DNA of 14,764 bases, taken from the IMG/VR virus record IMGVR_UViG_2609459864_000006, one strand, 5' to 3'. This DNA comes from a virus (Duplodnaviria > Heunggongvirae > Uroviricota > Caudoviricetes). Position numbers: made by a program. Positions 3,001 through 9,000 of this stretch are shown here, one piece after another (the stretch's first letter is position 1; every line of letters starts with the position of its first letter).

Positions 3001-6000
3001 GGGTACAGATAATGGACCGCCATCGAGGACTCGAACCCCGCGCAACCAGCTTCGAAGGCTGGCGCTCTATCCTGATGAGCTAATGGCGGTATGTGATGGT
3101 GGCCCTTGCTGGATTTGAACCAGCGACCTGGCGATTATGAGTCGCTCTCACCACTGAGCTAAAGGGCCGGGAGCCGCATAATAACGACGCGTAATTAATT
3201 CTTCAATATCATCCGTTCTGGCTGACTAAATCCTGTACTTCCCGAACAGTCTGCTCAAAACATTCAGTCTCCAGCTCAACGCCAATTGCACGACGCCCGA
3301 GCGCCAGTGCTGCTTTGACGCTACGGACATAAAAAAGCCAGCCACTGGGGGAGGCTGGCGAAACTCGTAGAGCAAAAGTGTTGTTACACTAACTTCGTCA
3401 CAGGGTTATCCTGCAATACTCAAAATACACAATATTTACAAAACTAATAGTATACAAGGCGATCTTTAAGATTTTGTTATAAATTATTGCCTTTCTCCTC
3501 TTTCCATGAGCTTTCTGGGTAGCCACAGAATTCCGGGTACAGAAAAACCCGCTCAGCGGCGGGTTTAAGCTGTGTGACGAAGTAACCACTCTTAACAGCA
3601 TAACCAATTTTTTACGTACGTAAACCACTAAATGATATTTGCGAGAATGCTACCGAGTATTGAAAACACCACTACAAATACATAAGCAAATCTCAACAAA
3701 TAACCAACAAACAATTTCCAGTGTTATTTTTAGCCGGTTTAAATTGAACCTTCAAATTATAGAGCACTTATAAATAACAGCCGTTAATATAAATTGGCTA
3801 ATAGATTTATTTTTATTCAGCCAAGAGCCATGAATAGGATTCGATAGAAAAAAGTTCAGATAAAAATAGAGATCTACTTCACAAATCAAACGAGAAACCA
3901 AAACTTACATCTTGAAATAATCACATTGATTAGATGAATATTTATCGCGCAGTGACATCATTTTTTAATAATAGTTCAAAAAAAGGGCTCACGATGAAAA
4001 AATTAACAGTGGCAATTTCTGCTGTAGCTGCATCAGTACTGATGGCGATGTCTGCTCAGGCAGCTGAAATTTATAATAAAGACAGTAACAAGCTGGATCT
4101 GTACGGGAAAGTTAATGCTAAGCACTATTTCTCCTCTAATGATGCAGATGATGGTGATACTACTTATGCCCGTCTTGGCTTCAAAGGTGAAACCCAAATC
4201 AACGATCAACTGACTGGTTTCGGTCAGTGGGAATATGAATTCAAAGGCAACCGCGCTGAATCTCAAGGTTCCTCCAAAGATAAAACCCGTCTTGCCTTCG
4301 CTGGCCTGAAATTCGGTGACTACGGCTCAATCGATTACGGCCGTAACTACGGTGTAGCATACGACATCGGTGCGTGGACTGACGTTCTGCCAGAATTCGG
4401 TGGCGATACCTGGACCCAAACAGATGTGTTCATGACTGGTCGCACCACTGGTGTTGCAACTTATCGTAACAACGACTTCTTTGGTCTGGTTGATGGTCTG
4501 AACTTTGCTGCTCAGTATCAGGGTAAAAATGACCGCACTGACGTAACTGAAGCTAATGGTGATGGTTTCGGTTTCTCCACTACTTATGAGTATGAAGGAT
4601 TCGGTGTAGGTGCAACCTATGCTAAATCTGACCGCACTAATAATCAGGTTATCTACGGTAACAACAGCCTGAATGCATCTGGTCAAAATGCTGAAGTATG
4701 GGCAGCTGGTCTGAAATATGATGCGAACAACATCTATCTGGCTACCACCTATTCTGAAACCCAGAACATGACTGTTTTTGGTAATAACCATATTGCCAAC
4801 AAAGCACAAAACTTCGAAGTAGTTGCACAATATCAGTTCGACTTCGGTCTGCGTCCGTCCGTTGCTTACCTGCAATCTAAAGGAAAAGACTTGGGTGCGT
4901 GGGGTGATCAGGACCTGGTTGAATATATTGATGTAGGTGCAACCTATTACTTCAACAAAAATATGTCCACTTTTGTTGATTACAAAATCAACCTGATTGA
5001 TAAGAGCGATTTCACGAAAGCATCTGGCGTTGCTACCGATGATATCGTTGCTGTAGGTATGGTTTACCAGTTCTAATTTGATTACTAAAAGATATGTTGC
5101 GGGAGGCTTTGCCCCCCCAACATATAAGTGGCTCCCTCAAGCCACTTCCTTTAGGAGCACAACCTTGCTTCTAACTATATAAACCTTCTGTTATATATTA
5201 CCCTTTATTTTTGGGGGGCGTTGCAACGCCCCATTTTTAATAATTTTTAGTAAACAATTGGCATATTAATTAGAGTTATTAACAACGATATCCATCTCTA
5301 ACCGGATATCTAATGCCATTAACATCCCTTCAATTATGCCCTCAGCCTTCTGTAACCTTTTCCCGATATAACCATCAGAGCAGCAATGCTTACCTGCCAG
5401 TGACATGAATGTCATACCGACTACATAATAATCTACTAATAAATCGTGCAAATCGCTGTTGTTCTTTTTCAGACGGGCCATGCACCCGCAAATAATCATC
5501 GCGTCATCGTCACAACATTGCGGGCGAGATTTTACTTTTGAAGTAATTAATCCCTTAAAACCGGCGGCAATGGACGACCAGGTCACATCTTCATGATTAT
5601 TAGCCGCCCACGCTCCCCAGCGTTCGAGAACCATCTGAATATCACGCATCAACTTTCTCCACAAAATCAGGACAGCACACCAATCGCCAGCGCGCGATCG
5701 ATAAAACGAAATATCAGCTCCAGTTGGGAACCATACTTCTCTTCAAATGCCACGGTACCCGGTATGAAATTGCGGGTAAAAAACTCGCGTGAGCAGTTCA
5801 GATACTCGATTTTGTCAACGATGTTCTGGTGCATGCGCTTGAAATGGCAGGCAACATGCAGGGAGAAAATAACGGCCTTGCCGTTGACGACTTCGATTTT
5901 TAGGAATGGGGAAGTTAGGACAGTAGCCATGATGGCAGCCTCCGTATGCAATGGATAACTTCCACCACCGGAGCTGCGAAACTCATGGGTGGTGAACTGA

Positions 6001-9000
6001 ACAGGGTTCGCAGTACCGGCGCATACGGAAACCGGCGAGCCTTTCGGCTCCCCTGCCCAGCCCACCATAATTCTGGCGTGCGTGAGCGCGGACGATAAAA
6101 AAGACGCTGGCGCGTCATATATCGCCGTATGCAATTCCGGGCTGCGACCCCCGGCACCCGCTTTATAAGGTGCAGAGACAGTGTAACGTCCCGAAATTGC
6201 AGAATCAATATTTGGTCTTGAAATGATCATATAGCTGCTGATATCTTTAGAACTGTTCTTGGATGTTTCGGAGCCGTTTTATGCGAAACAGCTCCCCGTT
6301 ATTGATGTTGAGTGAGCCGGGTTACTCCCGGCTTTTTTTCACCGCTGCCAACCAATAACCTGAAATAACCCCATTTTCGGGTGATACCAGCGAGTCCCTC
6401 GCGGTTCTGCTTCCTCCATAACCCGATAAAAAGCAGCCATAAACGGTTCCACAGCAACAATTGCGCGACGTGACAACAATCCGTCCGGCGTCATGAACTC
6501 ATGTGTGTCTGTAGGAATTTGATAGGCGTTCACCAGATTGCGGCATTTATCATCTGACAAACCGGTTTTTGCTTTCAGTTGGCGATATCCGGCATAGCCC
6601 TCACGAATAGTGCCCTTTTTAATTTGCTCGACTGTTTCAGCAACGTGGCTGACTTTTTCTTCCACCTGAGTGATCCGTTTCTGTTGGCGAACGGCTTCAA
6701 GAGCCATCGCGGCAACCATTTCGATTTCGCTCATTGGCTTACGGATCTGTTCTTCCAGTTCGCGCCAGCGATCTACCAGGCGAGCTGTGAATTCAGGACA
6801 GAGCTGTGCGACGACAATGATGCTGTCGCGCTTACCTTGTTCACCTTCGAATACATACGCGCTAGAAAATCGGCGAGGCCCAAGTGATTGTTTATTCTCA
6901 ATTTCCACAGTCTGTGGAAATTGGATGATTCCCTTTTTAGCCAGTGTTTCAATAGTTCTCTTAACACTATCTGGTCGGCTTCCCACCAGCTCTGCGATCT
7001 CAACGCTGGTCATGGATGCTTTGCCGTTAAAAATTGCGGTGTTCATTGTTGGTCTCCTGTGGGCTTGTCATCTTCTGTATTCGCTAGACTTGGGTTTGTA
7101 TATGGAATGCTCGGATCCAGATGACAAAGAATGGCAACATCCTCCGGAACACCTCGCGTTTTCCACTTTCCAACACCTTGACTGCCACGAGGCCTTCCTT
7201 TCTTTGGGAACCTGCGACCAATAGCGGCATTGGTTTTAAATTGAATTTTTAATATTTCATAAAGGGTCATTCTTTAGTCTCACACCAGATACTTTGTTAT
7301 CCAACGATGTTAACCACAGGAATCCAAAGTATCAAGAAATTCTGTTACTTTAGTATCAACAACCATGAGAGGAGAAGAAAAATGAAGTCTTTAGGTGAAC
7401 GTCTCATCAACGCACGGCAAAAAGCTGGGTTAACACAAGATGCGTTGGCTAAAAAAGCTGGGATCACCAGAGTTGCAATCAGTAAAGCCGAGCAAGGCCT
7501 TACAAAAAGTTTCAACGGTGACACCCTTTTTAAAGTTGCAGCTGCACTGCGGTGTTCACCGCAGTGGCTTCAGAACGGAGATGAAAAAGATAAGCATTGG
7601 GAAAATAATGTTAAGAGCTGCCCACAGAGAGACACAGCACACTCTTACCCTGTAATTAACTGGGTTCAGGCAGGATTATTCGCAACTTCTGGTGATGACT
7701 ACAACATGTATGATCAGGATAATTGGAGGCATTCTGTAAAATACGCTGGTGAGAGGGGGTTCTGGCTGGAAGTGCACGGAGACTCAATGACTTCGCCCGT
7801 AGGAATAACATTTCCTGAAGGAATGTCGATCCTTGTCAACCCAGATAAAGAAGTTTTTTCAGGGTGTTACGTCATCGCCAGAAAAAAATCCACCAATGAA
7901 GCAACATTCAAAAAATATATTTCTGACATGGGAAAGGCGTTTCTAAAGCCCCTTAATCCACAATATCCAATCATAGAAATGGACAATGATTGCGAAATAG
8001 TAGGTGTTGTGGTTGATGCCAGGTGGGATATTTTCTGACCAGACACAAAACACAAAAAGAAACCAAAGTATCAAAAATCACTTGCCACACCTTGATACCT
8101 TAGTTACCATAAAACAAAGTTCGTAACTGAGGTATCATCTCATGATCAATAAAGCTACAACTCTTGACTGTCTCGAAGAACTGAAAAACCTCGGCAGCCT
8201 CATTACACTAATAGCAAAAGCAACACCTGATGCTACGCTCTCTAGCGATATAGAGTCATGCGCAGGACTGGCATGGGATATGACAAATAGCATATCCAGA
8301 AAGCTATCGTCAGCAATGCTTTTACAGAATAAAAATTCTGCAATCAACAACCGTCTTCGCACCCAACGCGAAGCCTGCGGCTTAACAACCGCCGAACTCG
8401 CCAGGCTGCTCGATCTCGATGAAGAAATTATCATCCAGTGGGAGAGCGGAGAGTATGAACCAACTATCAGTATGCTTATCCCACTGGCAAATATTCTTGG
8501 CTGCGATCCGATGTGGCTGTTAACTGGTAAACCAACAGGTGGGGATACTTGCGCATGAAAAACTGTGATGCTTACCATATTTGTCTCATTGGTGAATTGC
8601 TTGATTTCATACAAAAAAGCACTGCGCGCAATAATAAAAATATAACATATGGTGATCTGGTAATAATTTCAGAGGATATAAAGAGCATCGCTCTTAAATT
8701 CAAGAGCGACGCGAGTATTGATGACGCTATTTACGCTTATCTTGCGAAAATAATTGACGGATCCAAAATCCAGCCTCTGGATGAACCTCGTCAGTGAAAA
8801 ACTCCTTTGATGAAGATGAGAACTGCTTCATAAACTTTACTTTATCTTCAGGTGAAACTACCTGACGAATTAATGCGGAGATAGCAACTTTGTGCCAAAT
8901 TAATTCTTTTTTGAGTTCTGAAATCTCTTTTTCGAGTTGCTCTGCGTTAATCATTTATCCTCCATTGAGAGCTGAATTGAAAATGGGGACCAACACGCGG

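What the first reader, a model, noticed from the sequence alone, without database searches (positions are those of the whole stretch)
5266..7046. Replication and nin modules absent: Rha gene runs almost directly into Q
Between the immunity region and Q a lambdoid phage normally carries cro/cII, replication genes and the nin region, typically several kb. Here the rightward operon is only a possible Cro-position ORF, an Rha-family regulator, one unknown 187-aa gene, then Q. No initiator, helicase-loader or primase-like gene is visible anywhere in the window. Either this is a deletion-derived cryptic prophage that still keeps regulated lysis, porin and integrase modules, or the 187-aa protein has an unrecognised function.
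Basis: partly seen in the sequence, partly recalled or inferred. Interest (0 to 1): 0.4.

Follow-up and report, generated by a model that had tools for sequence, protein, structure and literature searches.

The report
Deletion-crippled E. coli prophage, chimeric ORF
An E. coli lambdoid prophage has lost its whole DNA-replication module in one 6.2-kb deletion, and the "unknown 187-aa gene" is the scar of that deletion lying over two known phage small-RNA genes, so this is an ordinary defective prophage.

Summary
On the minus strand the order is cro-position ORF, Rha-family gene, a 187-codon ORF, then Q. No ORF in the window matches a replication family.

The cause is a mapped deletion. Window 5755-8528 is 99.1% identical to an intact yecE prophage of E. 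coli 09-02E (L001). Window 176-5761 is 99.2% identical to a yecE prophage of strain B1-56 (L010). The two homologies meet at a 3-nt TAC inside an imperfect 7-nt microhomology. Relative to L001, 6,246 bp are missing. The lost genes include the replication initiator, a DnaC/IstB-like loader, a DnaB-type helicase and about 300 of 329 DUF968 codons.

The 187-aa ORF is not a normal gene:
- Codons 1-100 overlie an isrK promoter and sRNA and a C4-type antisense RNA, both above Rfam gathering scores.
- Codons 101-158 are the 5' part of a truncated Rha-domain gene, called an antirepressor by one depositor.
- Codons 159-187 are the tail of DUF968.

The junction is real: the exact chimera occurs on at least 14 contigs from several E. 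coli assemblies and two metagenomes.

Verdict: a replication-defective prophage produced by deletion. Interest is low.

The parts
5266..5649 (-). Q antiterminator gene (quuD-type, 127 aa from the ATG; the ORF extends to a TTG at 5664)
   Evidence: Pfam Phage_antitermQ 4e-53. 99.9% identical to the quuD region of E. coli B1-56.
5667..5757 (-). 3' remnant of a DUF968 gene: its last 29 codons plus the stop. These are residues 159-187 of the 187-aa ORF.
   Evidence: Pfam DUF968 profile positions 146-171 of 171 only, below the cutoff. PHROG tails phrog_23141 and phrog_96. Collinear with the end of the intact 329-aa DUF968 genes of L001, L010 and L011.
5755..5761 (.). Deletion junction. The minus strand reads CGGGTAC. 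The crossover lies in the exact TAC (5757-5755), inside the imperfect microhomology CGG(G/A)TAC.
   Evidence: The two blastn alignments overlap by 7 nt. Multiple alignments of both parental sides agree.
5758..5930 (-). 5' fragment (58 of 120 codons) of a small Rha-domain gene, called 'antirepressor' by one depositor, starting at ATG 5930
   Evidence: The full 120-aa version in L001 hits Phage_pRha at 30.0 bits against a 29.9 cutoff. An identical-type 120-aa cluster member is named 'antirepressor'. PHROG Rha-like and anti-repressor hits cover residues 112-156.
5939..5949 (-). Downstream C4 target (GCATACGG, 5949-5942) overlapping the GGAGG ribosome-binding site (5943-5939) of the truncated Rha-domain gene
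   Evidence: Read from the sequence. It covaries with the C4 loop across four cassette types.
5985..6072 (-). C4-type antisense RNA gene (relative of P1/P7 C4, P4 CI and Salmonella STnc1160). Loop CCGTATGC lies at 6028-6021.
   Evidence: Rfam RF01695, 83.3 bits against a gathering score of 45, full length. Predicted fold -46.2 kcal/mol, with compensatory stem changes between cassettes.
6097..6173 (-). isrK-type sRNA gene with its own intrinsic terminator (6116-6103 plus a T-run). It holds the upstream C4 target GCATACGG at 6132-6125.
   Evidence: Rfam RF01394, 58.8 bits against 50. Terminator scan. Sequence.
6180..6208 (-). Putative isrK promoter: TTGATT (6208-6203), 17-nt spacer, TACACT (6185-6180). 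The -10 hexamer ends 7 nt upstream of the first base of the Rfam isrK match.
   Evidence: Read from the sequence. Conserved in the second cassette of L001. It falls below the consensus threshold of the scan, so it is inferred by position and by homology to Gifsy-1 PisrK (PMC4825925).
5667..6230 (-). The 187-codon ORF as a whole: a composite of the promoter, two RNA genes, a truncated Rha-domain gene and the DUF968 tail
   Evidence: NCBI holds the exact sequence as 'DUF968 domain-containing protein [Escherichia coli]'.
6339..7046 (-). Rha-family regulator, 235 aa, intact
   Evidence: phrog_63 at 3e-46. Lies in a segment 99.1% identical to L001, where it is annotated 'Rha family transcriptional regulator'.
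7043..7270 (-). Cro-position ORF, 75 aa
   Evidence: phrog_4749 at 1.6e-47, function unknown. No Pfam hit. The role is inferred from its position only.
7382..8038 (+). CI-type repressor (HTH plus S24 LexA-like peptidase), divergent from the cro-position ORF
   Evidence: Pfam Peptidase_S24 4e-22 and HTH_3 2e-14. Called as 218 aa in the deletion-carrying contigs and annotated as a 657-nt 'LexA family protein' gene in relatives.

Best explanation
The window is the early region and the start of the late region of an E. coli lambdoid prophage integrated at yecE. A single illegitimate recombination event removed about 6.2 kb of the rightward early operon. One breakpoint lies at codon 58 of a small Rha-domain gene that follows an isrK/C4 RNA cassette. 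The other lies 29 codons before the end of the DUF968 gene that sits immediately upstream of Q. The join used a 3-nt TAC within a 6-of-7 microhomology and happens to be in frame.

The deleted interval held the rest of that Rha-domain gene, a second isrK/C4 cassette with its Rha-domain gene, two small genes, a 99-aa and a 330-aa replication-initiation protein (in lambdoid phages the origin normally lies in the initiator gene), a DnaC/IstB-like loader, a DnaB-type helicase, one small gene and most of DUF968.

The '187-aa protein' is therefore an accidental composite. Its first 100 codons run across the isrK promoter, the IsrK sRNA with its terminator, and the C4-type antisense RNA. Its next 58 codons are the start of the Rha-domain gene. 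Its last 29 are the DUF968 tail.

Shown here: the breakpoints, the gene content of the gap in relatives, the RNA gene matches, and the presence of the junction in many independent assemblies.

Inferred: the prophage can no longer replicate autonomously. It still has repressor, cro-position gene, Q, lysis genes, int and xis, so it could at most excise and lyse without amplification. It is inherited vertically, carrying its porin, tRNAs and esterase.
For: - Left homology: window 5755-8528 = L001 12001-14774 at 99.1%. Window 5603-5761 = L001 5603-5761. The gap in L001 is 6,246 bp.
- Gap content: L001 annotation of the gap, with Pfam DnaB_C 6e-74, IstB 4e-14 and DUF968 7.5e-81, and PHROG replication initiation protein 4e-78.
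- Right homology: window 176-5761 = L010 at 99.2%, ending exactly at the junction.
- Plausible undeleted parent: L011 carries both the window-type porin-Q-DUF968 module and the L001-type helicase and loader.
- Junction alignments.
- RNA genes: Rfam isrK and C4 lie inside the ORF.
- Chimeric ORF: it matches only the first half of phrog_995 and only the tail of the DUF968/HNH families.
- Not an artefact: the exact chimera is on at least 14 contigs. L003-L009 are 99.97-100% identical to the window. NCBI holds it under several E. coli accessions.
- No replication-family hit for any scanned window ORF.
Against: - No complete genome in the collection has the same left and right modules in undeleted form. 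The parent is inferred from two or three mosaic relatives.
- The prophage beyond the lysis genes was not seen, because the contigs break there. A replication function elsewhere in the element is unlikely but not formally excluded.
- Loss of inducibility or replication was not tested.
- The reading frame of the first 100 codons is open in all four diverged cassettes examined. Some translation of the 'ash' part cannot be ruled out.
Confidence: 0.9

Rival explanations
1. The same junction arose by illegitimate recombination between two different yecE-type prophages, for example tandem lysogens or an infecting phage and a resident prophage. One would be of L001 type and one of L010/L011 type. This differs from a simple internal 6.2-kb deletion in one mosaic parent, but the end product is identical.
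For: The left of the junction is 99.1% identical to L001. The right is 99.2% identical to L010 but only about 95.5-96% identical to L001. Both types use the same integrase and the same yecE site, so tandem or sequential lysogeny is possible. No undeleted genome with exactly both modules was found.
Against: L011 shows that L001-type replication genes and the window-type DUF968-Q-porin module already coexist in one prophage. A mosaic parent followed by one small deletion is therefore simpler.
Confidence: 0.15
2. The 187-aa ORF encodes a genuine protein with an unrecognised function, for example a compact replication or regulatory factor, and the short Rha-to-Q spacing is the native design of this phage type.
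For: Pfam Phage_ASH scores 63.5 bits, above its cutoff. Gene callers call the ORF. The frame is open in four diverged cassettes.
Against: - The Phage_ASH match (residues 16-106) spans the same stretch as the two Rfam RNA genes (residues 20-82).
- The stems of the RNAs show compensatory changes, while the encoded peptide is poorly conserved.
- The C-terminal 29 residues are the tail of an unrelated 329-aa protein.
- Cluster mates are 220-221 aa or the 120-aa short form.
- Relatives have a full replication module at this place.
- PMC12197685, citing PMC4825925, notes that the nucleotide sequence of orf45 is conserved but its amino-acid sequence varies.
Confidence: 0.03
3. The element is a satellite-like or helper-dependent derivative that is maintained because it exploits the replication proteins of another lambdoid prophage in the same cell.
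For: It keeps int, xis, repressor, Q and lysis genes. E. coli strains usually carry several lambdoid prophages: the Q region matches a median of 2 places per genome.
Against: The initiator gene was deleted along with the other replication genes. By analogy with lambda, where ori lies inside O, the origin went with it. No replication-related gene or known origin-bearing gene remains, though iterons were not searched for. The breakpoints truncate two genes, which is the signature of an accident rather than a design.
Confidence: 0.03
4. The junction is an assembly artefact.
For: Lambdoid prophage regions are repeat-rich and often misassembled.
Against: The identical junction appears in at least 14 contigs from independent NCBI assemblies, a Logan run and two ENA metagenomes. 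Identity across the junction is 99.97-100%.
Confidence: 0.01

Closest known systems
Defective (cryptic) lambdoid prophages of E. coli such as DLP12, Rac and Qin
   Same: A lambdoid prophage that has lost essential early genes by deletion while keeping Q, a lysis cassette, an integrase and a porin gene. The porin is inverted between Q and the lysis genes, as is nmpC in DLP12 (own knowledge). PhiR29_1 shows the same Q / inverted porin / holin arrangement.
   Different: Here only one 6.2-kb internal deletion is documented and both breakpoints are mapped. The immunity region, int and xis look intact. The state of the morphogenetic genes is unknown.
Intact yecE-integrating lambdoid prophages: E. 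coli 09-02E (NZ_AP022650.1), O111:H21 15A (NZ_CP077477.1) and B1-56 (NZ_AP040249.1). Phage phiP27 and several Stx phages share the immunity / Rha / 'ash' region.
   Same: Same integrase and attachment site and the same left arm. The immunity region is 99% identical to 09-02E. The late region (window 176-5761, esterase through Q) is 99.2% identical to B1-56. phiP27 is 89% identical over the cI-Rha-ash segment.
   Different: Those elements carry initiator, loader, helicase and full DUF968 genes between the Rha/isrK-C4 region and Q. The window lacks them.
Gifsy-1 isrK-orf45(STnc1160)-anrP locus (PMC4825925), P1/P7 immI c4-icd-ant, and P4 seqA-CI-seqC
   Same: - An isrK-type sRNA with a read-through terminator.
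- A C4/CI-type processed antisense RNA.
- An ATG at +106 from the isrK start, compared with +107 for orf45 in Gifsy-1.
- A downstream Rha-domain gene, comparable in position to the anti-repressor-like anrP of Gifsy-1.
- A loop sequence complementary both to an upstream site in isrK and to the ribosome-binding site of the downstream gene.
   Different: In the window the regulated gene is truncated after 58 codons and fused to a DUF968 tail, so the cassette has lost its protein output. The orf45-equivalent frame is fused in frame to the downstream gene instead of ending before it. Q lies downstream here, not upstream as in Gifsy-1.

Membership tests
Deletion-derived defective lambdoid prophage | Collinear high-identity homology to intact relatives on both sides of a gap | tested here: met
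   99.1% identity to L001 on the left and 99.2% to L010 on the right. Both alignments end at window 5755-5761.
Deletion-derived defective lambdoid prophage | Truncated gene remnants at the junction | tested here: met
   The Rha-domain gene is cut after 58 of 120 codons. DUF968 is reduced to 29 of 329 codons.
Deletion-derived defective lambdoid prophage | Essential replication genes absent from the element | tested here: inconclusive
   They are absent from the whole 14.8-kb window and present in the gap of relatives. The region beyond the lysis genes is not visible in any carrier contig.
Deletion-derived defective lambdoid prophage | Failure to replicate or produce phage on induction | not testable with these tools
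   Needs mitomycin C induction with copy-number and plaque assays.
isrK / C4-type RNA-controlled antirepressor cassette (Gifsy-1 isrK locus, P1 immI, P4 immunity) | isrK-type and C4/CI-type RNA genes in tandem on the same strand | tested here: met
   Rfam RF01394 at 58.8 bits (gathering 50) and RF01695 at 83.3 bits (gathering 45), 24 nt apart.
isrK / C4-type RNA-controlled antirepressor cassette (Gifsy-1 isrK locus, P1 immI, P4 immunity) | The antisense loop is complementary to an upstream and a downstream target, and these covary between relatives | tested here: met
   Loop and target pairs: CCGUAUGC / GCAUACGG (window), CCGUUGAC / GUCAACGG (L001 cassette 1), CCUUGAUC / GAUCAAGG (L010), CUAUGUUGA / UCAAUAUAG and UCAACAUAG (L001 cassette 2). 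Cognate C4-leader duplex energies are the best for all four cassette types, though L001 cassette 2 is only 0.7 kcal/mol better than its best non-cognate leader.
isrK / C4-type RNA-controlled antirepressor cassette (Gifsy-1 isrK locus, P1 immI, P4 immunity) | An intact downstream antirepressor or Rha-domain gene as the regulated output | tested here: not met
   The gene is truncated at codon 58 by the deletion. The fragment no longer scores as Phage_pRha (protein 9).
Pfam Phage_ASH (PF10554), 'ash family protein' | Score above the Pfam gathering threshold | tested here: met
   63.5 bits against 26, residues 16-106. The matched DNA (about 6185-5913) contains the isrK and C4 genes.
Pfam Phage_ASH (PF10554), 'ash family protein' | The region is actually translated into a functional protein | not testable with these tools
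   The frame is open in four diverged cassettes, but peptide conservation is poor where the RNA stems covary. In Gifsy-1 only orf45 (45 codons) was shown to be translated (PMC4825925).
DUF968 (PF06147) nin-region-type protein | Full-length domain above the gathering threshold | tested here: not met
   25.5-27.2 bits against a cutoff of 27.8. Only profile positions 146-171 of 171 match. The intact relatives score 270.6 bits.

The most novel reading that the evidence does not exclude
The deletion may have rewired late-gene control by accident. Q now starts 17 nt after the stop of an ORF whose ribosome-binding site is the target of the C4 antisense RNA. It lies only about 520 nt downstream of the isrK promoter, which in Gifsy-1 is active in lysogens and not known to be under repressor control. 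Read-through of the isrK terminator, gated by the IsrK/C4 RNA pair, could then drive Q. That would drive the esterase and lysis genes independently of the CI-type repressor, turning a replication-dead prophage into an RNA-controlled lysis or effector-release module.
Probability: 0.08. Interest if true: 0.45.

Novelty: already known. Interest (0 to 1): 0.18.

Why it matters
The practical value is for annotation. A protein deposited as 'DUF968 domain-containing protein' is a deletion scar. The 'ash family protein' label, here and in relatives, covers two RNA genes (isrK and C4 type) that protein-only annotation misses.

Biologically, this is one more well-documented case of prophage domestication by loss of the replication module. 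Porin, tRNA, esterase, immunity and integration genes are retained, and the breakpoints and microhomology are mapped exactly. It opens no new question. The only speculative point is whether Q has come under control of the isrK/C4 RNA switch.

Tried and rejected
- The exact-junction scan of one genome per species (genome contigs) found nothing. The carriers are draft E. coli assemblies that are not species representatives.
- No complete E. coli genome (0 of 5,426) covers at least 80% of window 5100-7400. The undeleted parent therefore had to be reconstructed from mosaic relatives.
- RNA duplex energies between C4 and isrK did not separate cognate from non-cognate pairs, because extended pairing elsewhere dominates. 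The C4-leader matrix and direct reading of the loop and target octamers were used instead.
I dropped this because DNA alignments and domain boundaries already show it is a chimera.
- I could not extend beyond the lysis genes, because the carrier contigs that reach them end there.
- The consensus promoter scan does not list the isrK promoter, which matches only 8 of 12 positions. It is assigned by position and homology only.
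Full report
**Layout.** The window is a piece of an E. coli lambdoid prophage whose 'rightward' direction is the minus strand.
- Reading right to left on the plus strand: integrase (13451-14764), excisionase (13159-13395, phrog_539) and a left arm of small genes of unknown or regulatory function.
- Next come an HTH protein (8142-8558) and a CI-type HTH/S24 repressor (7382-8038).
- On the minus strand follow a 75-aa cro-position ORF (7043-7270), a 235-aa Rha-family regulator (6339-7046), the 187-codon ORF (5667-6230) and Q (5266-5649).
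- Beyond Q lie an inverted porin gene (3934-5076, plus strand), three tRNAs, an STnc100 sRNA, a NanS-p-type esterase (580-2433) and a holin (215-430).
None of the scanned ORFs in the window matches a replication family in Pfam or PHROGs.

**The gap is a deletion.** A megablast of 5100-7400 against 5,426 complete E. coli genomes gave thousands of partial hits, but none covered at least 80% of the query. The best-scoring matches, on both flanks, broke at query position 656-662, which is window 5755-5761.
- The best left-side relative is the yecE prophage of strain 09-02E (L001). It is 99.1% identical to window 5755-8528 (L001 12001-14774).
- L001 matches again at window 5603-5761 (L001 5603-5761). 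L001 therefore has 6,246 bp that the window lacks.

That interval is annotated in L001. I re-scanned it and found:
- the 3' part of an 'ash family protein' CDS;
- a 'Rha family phage regulatory protein';
- two small genes, and a 99-aa protein that hits a replication-initiation PHROG (phrog_4617, 2e-29);
- a 330-aa protein that is a replication initiation protein (phrog_270, 4e-78);
- an IstB/DnaC-like ATPase (PF01695, 4e-14);
- a DnaB-type helicase (DnaB_C, 6e-74);
- one small gene;
- a 329-aa DUF968 protein (270.6 bits).

**The right-hand parent.** The window's porin-Q module differs from L001.
- It is 99.2% identical to a yecE prophage of strain B1-56 over window 176-5761 (L010). That prophage has a different immunity and replication region.
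- It is 97.9% identical to the yecE prophage of O111:H21 strain 15A (L011). That prophage combines this late module with L001-type loader and helicase genes.
- Undeleted mosaics of the required kind therefore exist, and a single internal deletion in such a parent is the simplest history. Recombination between two yecE phages would give the same product and cannot be excluded.

**The junction.** On the minus strand the three sequences read as follows.
- Rha-gene side: ...TTTCATACCGGGTAC|TTATCAC.
- DUF968 side: ...CTACATGCGGATAC|CGTGGCATT.
- Window: ...TTTCATACCGGGTACCGTGGCATT.

The crossover lies in an exact TAC (window 5757-5755) within CGG(G/A)TAC. This is typical of microhomology-mediated illegitimate recombination. 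It is not an assembly artefact.
- The exact 187-aa product is encoded on at least 14 contigs from several NCBI E. coli assemblies, a Logan run and two ENA metagenomes. The three contigs that reach the chromosomal flank show yecE/yecN context.
- These contigs are 99.97-100% identical to the window.
- NCBI holds the protein as 'DUF968 domain-containing protein [Escherichia coli]'. Its 90% cluster otherwise consists mainly of 220-221-aa 'ash family proteins', plus a few shorter or partial entries and a 120-aa 'antirepressor'.

**What the 187-aa ORF really is.** Rfam finds two RNA genes inside it, on the same strand: isrK (6097-6173, 58.8 bits against 50) and a C4 antisense RNA (5985-6072, 83.3 bits against 45).
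- The Pfam Phage_ASH hit (residues 16-106) spans the same DNA as these genes.
- Upstream of isrK sits a promoter-like TTGATT-17-TACACT, whose -10 hexamer ends 7 nt upstream of the first base of the isrK match. isrK ends in an intrinsic terminator (6116-6103 plus a T-run).
- An ATG at 6068 lies at +106 from the isrK start. This matches the first AUG of orf45 (+107) in the Gifsy-1 isrK-orf45-anrP locus (PMC4825925).
- A GGAGG and an ATG at 5930 start a small Rha-domain protein. In L001 this protein is 120 aa long and hits Phage_pRha at 30.0 bits.
- In the window it is cut after 58 codons and continues in frame into the last 29 codons of DUF968.
- PHROGs gives the same picture: residues 5-163 match only the first half of phrog_995, and residues 158-187 match only the tails of phrog_23141 and an HNH/DUF968 family.

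**The RNA cassette looks functional as RNA.** L001 carries two tandem isrK-C4 cassettes, each followed by a Rha-domain gene. L010 and L011 carry one each. Four cassette types can be compared, and in each the C4 loop octamer pairs with two targets. One target is in isrK. The other overlaps the ribosome-binding site of the downstream gene. All three sites change together:

| Cassette | C4 loop | Targets |
|---|---|---|
| Window | CCGUAUGC | GCAUACGG |
| L001 cassette 1 | CCGUUGAC | GUCAACGG |
| L010 | CCUUGAUC | GAUCAAGG |
| L001 cassette 2 | CUAUGUUGA | UCAAUAUAG / UCAACAUAG |

- The first C4 hairpin also shows fully compensatory stems (GAGCC/GGCUC, CCAAC/GUUGG, GCAUC/GAUGC).
- Cognate C4-leader duplexes are the most stable in each row of the energy matrix, although for L001 cassette 2 the margin over the L010 leader is only 0.7 kcal/mol.
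- This is the logic of P1/P7 c4-ant heteroimmunity and of P4 seqA-CI-seqC, as summarised in PMC4825925 and PMC12197685.
- In the window the cassette is complete up to the start of its target gene, but the protein output has been destroyed.
- It remains unresolved whether the first 54 or 100 codons of the ORF are ever translated. The frame is open in all four cassettes while the other frames carry stops. However, the peptide is poorly conserved, and the literature notes conservation at nucleotide rather than amino-acid level for orf45.

**Consequences (inferred).**
- The initiator, loader and helicase are gone. By analogy with lambda, so is the origin inside the initiator gene. The prophage should therefore be unable to replicate, and complementation in trans should not rescue it.
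- It keeps the repressor, the cro-position gene, the Rha regulator, Q, holin and lysozyme, int and xis. It may still excise and kill on induction.
- Its presence in several assemblies with near-identical sequence fits vertical inheritance in a lineage.
- A speculative side effect also follows. Q now lies directly downstream of the C4-gated ribosome-binding site and about 520 nt from the isrK promoter, so Q might have come under RNA control. Nothing here tests that.

**Comparison and novelty.** This is a standard defective lambdoid prophage of the kind long known in E. coli (DLP12, Rac, Qin; own knowledge). The RNA elements belong to described families (Rfam RF01394 and RF01695; PMC4825925). 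The finding is explained and ordinary. Its value is as an annotation correction and a cleanly mapped deletion.

Noticed in passing
window 6132-6125, 6028-6021, 5949-5942; L001 11575-12419; L010 27378-27566: The C4 loop octamer, a site in isrK and the ribosome-binding-site region of the downstream gene covary in all three places. This gives four different 'specificities' among close relatives. The window differs from its 99%-identical relative L001 at exactly these sites, which suggests RNA-level heteroimmunity like that of P1 versus P7.
   Followed up: partly
L001 11575-11763 and 12231-12419: The intact relative carries two tandem isrK-C4 cassettes of different specificity, each followed by a Rha-domain gene. 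RefSeq annotates both as long CDSs ('ash family protein', 'Rha family phage regulatory protein') that run over the RNA genes.
   Followed up: partly
window 5931-6230 and the equivalent stretches of L001 and L010: The reading frame across the isrK promoter, isrK and C4 is open in all four diverged cassettes, while the other two frames have stops. It is unclear whether this reflects translation (for example of pR-derived transcripts) or RNA constraints. Pfam Phage_ASH may largely describe translated RNA genes.
   Followed up: partly
window 2656-2846 (-): A full-length STnc100 sRNA match (139 bits) lies between the tRNA cluster and the esterase gene. The same element is present in L010 and L011.
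   Followed up: no
window 6218-6247 (+) and 6314-6334 (+): A plus-strand promoter-like site (TTGAAA-18-TATCTT with an extended TG) is followed about 70 nt later by a strong plus-strand intrinsic terminator (GAGCCGGGTTACTCCCGGCTT plus a T-run). Both lie in the Rha-isrK intergenic region. This could be a short antisense transcript, or the terminator may simply block convergent transcription.
   Followed up: no
window about 3208-3321 (-) and 3317-5602: Relatives annotate a 114-nt remnant of a DNA methyltransferase gene next to the porin module. In L001 a full methyltransferase, a small gene and a different Q occupy this place. The porin-Q module is thus a second mosaic replacement with its own scar.
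   Followed up: partly
window 3097-3168 (-): ARAGORN calls this tRNA-Met (CAU), while RefSeq relatives annotate the same gene as tRNA-Ile. It is presumably the lysidine-modified Ile2 type common in Stx-phage tRNA clusters.
   Followed up: no
window 8529-9046: About 520 bp, with two small overlapping ORFs (82 aa on the plus strand, 75 aa on the minus strand; PHROGs of unknown function), has no match in L001 but is present in L011. This is an indel difference in the pL-proximal region.
   Followed up: no
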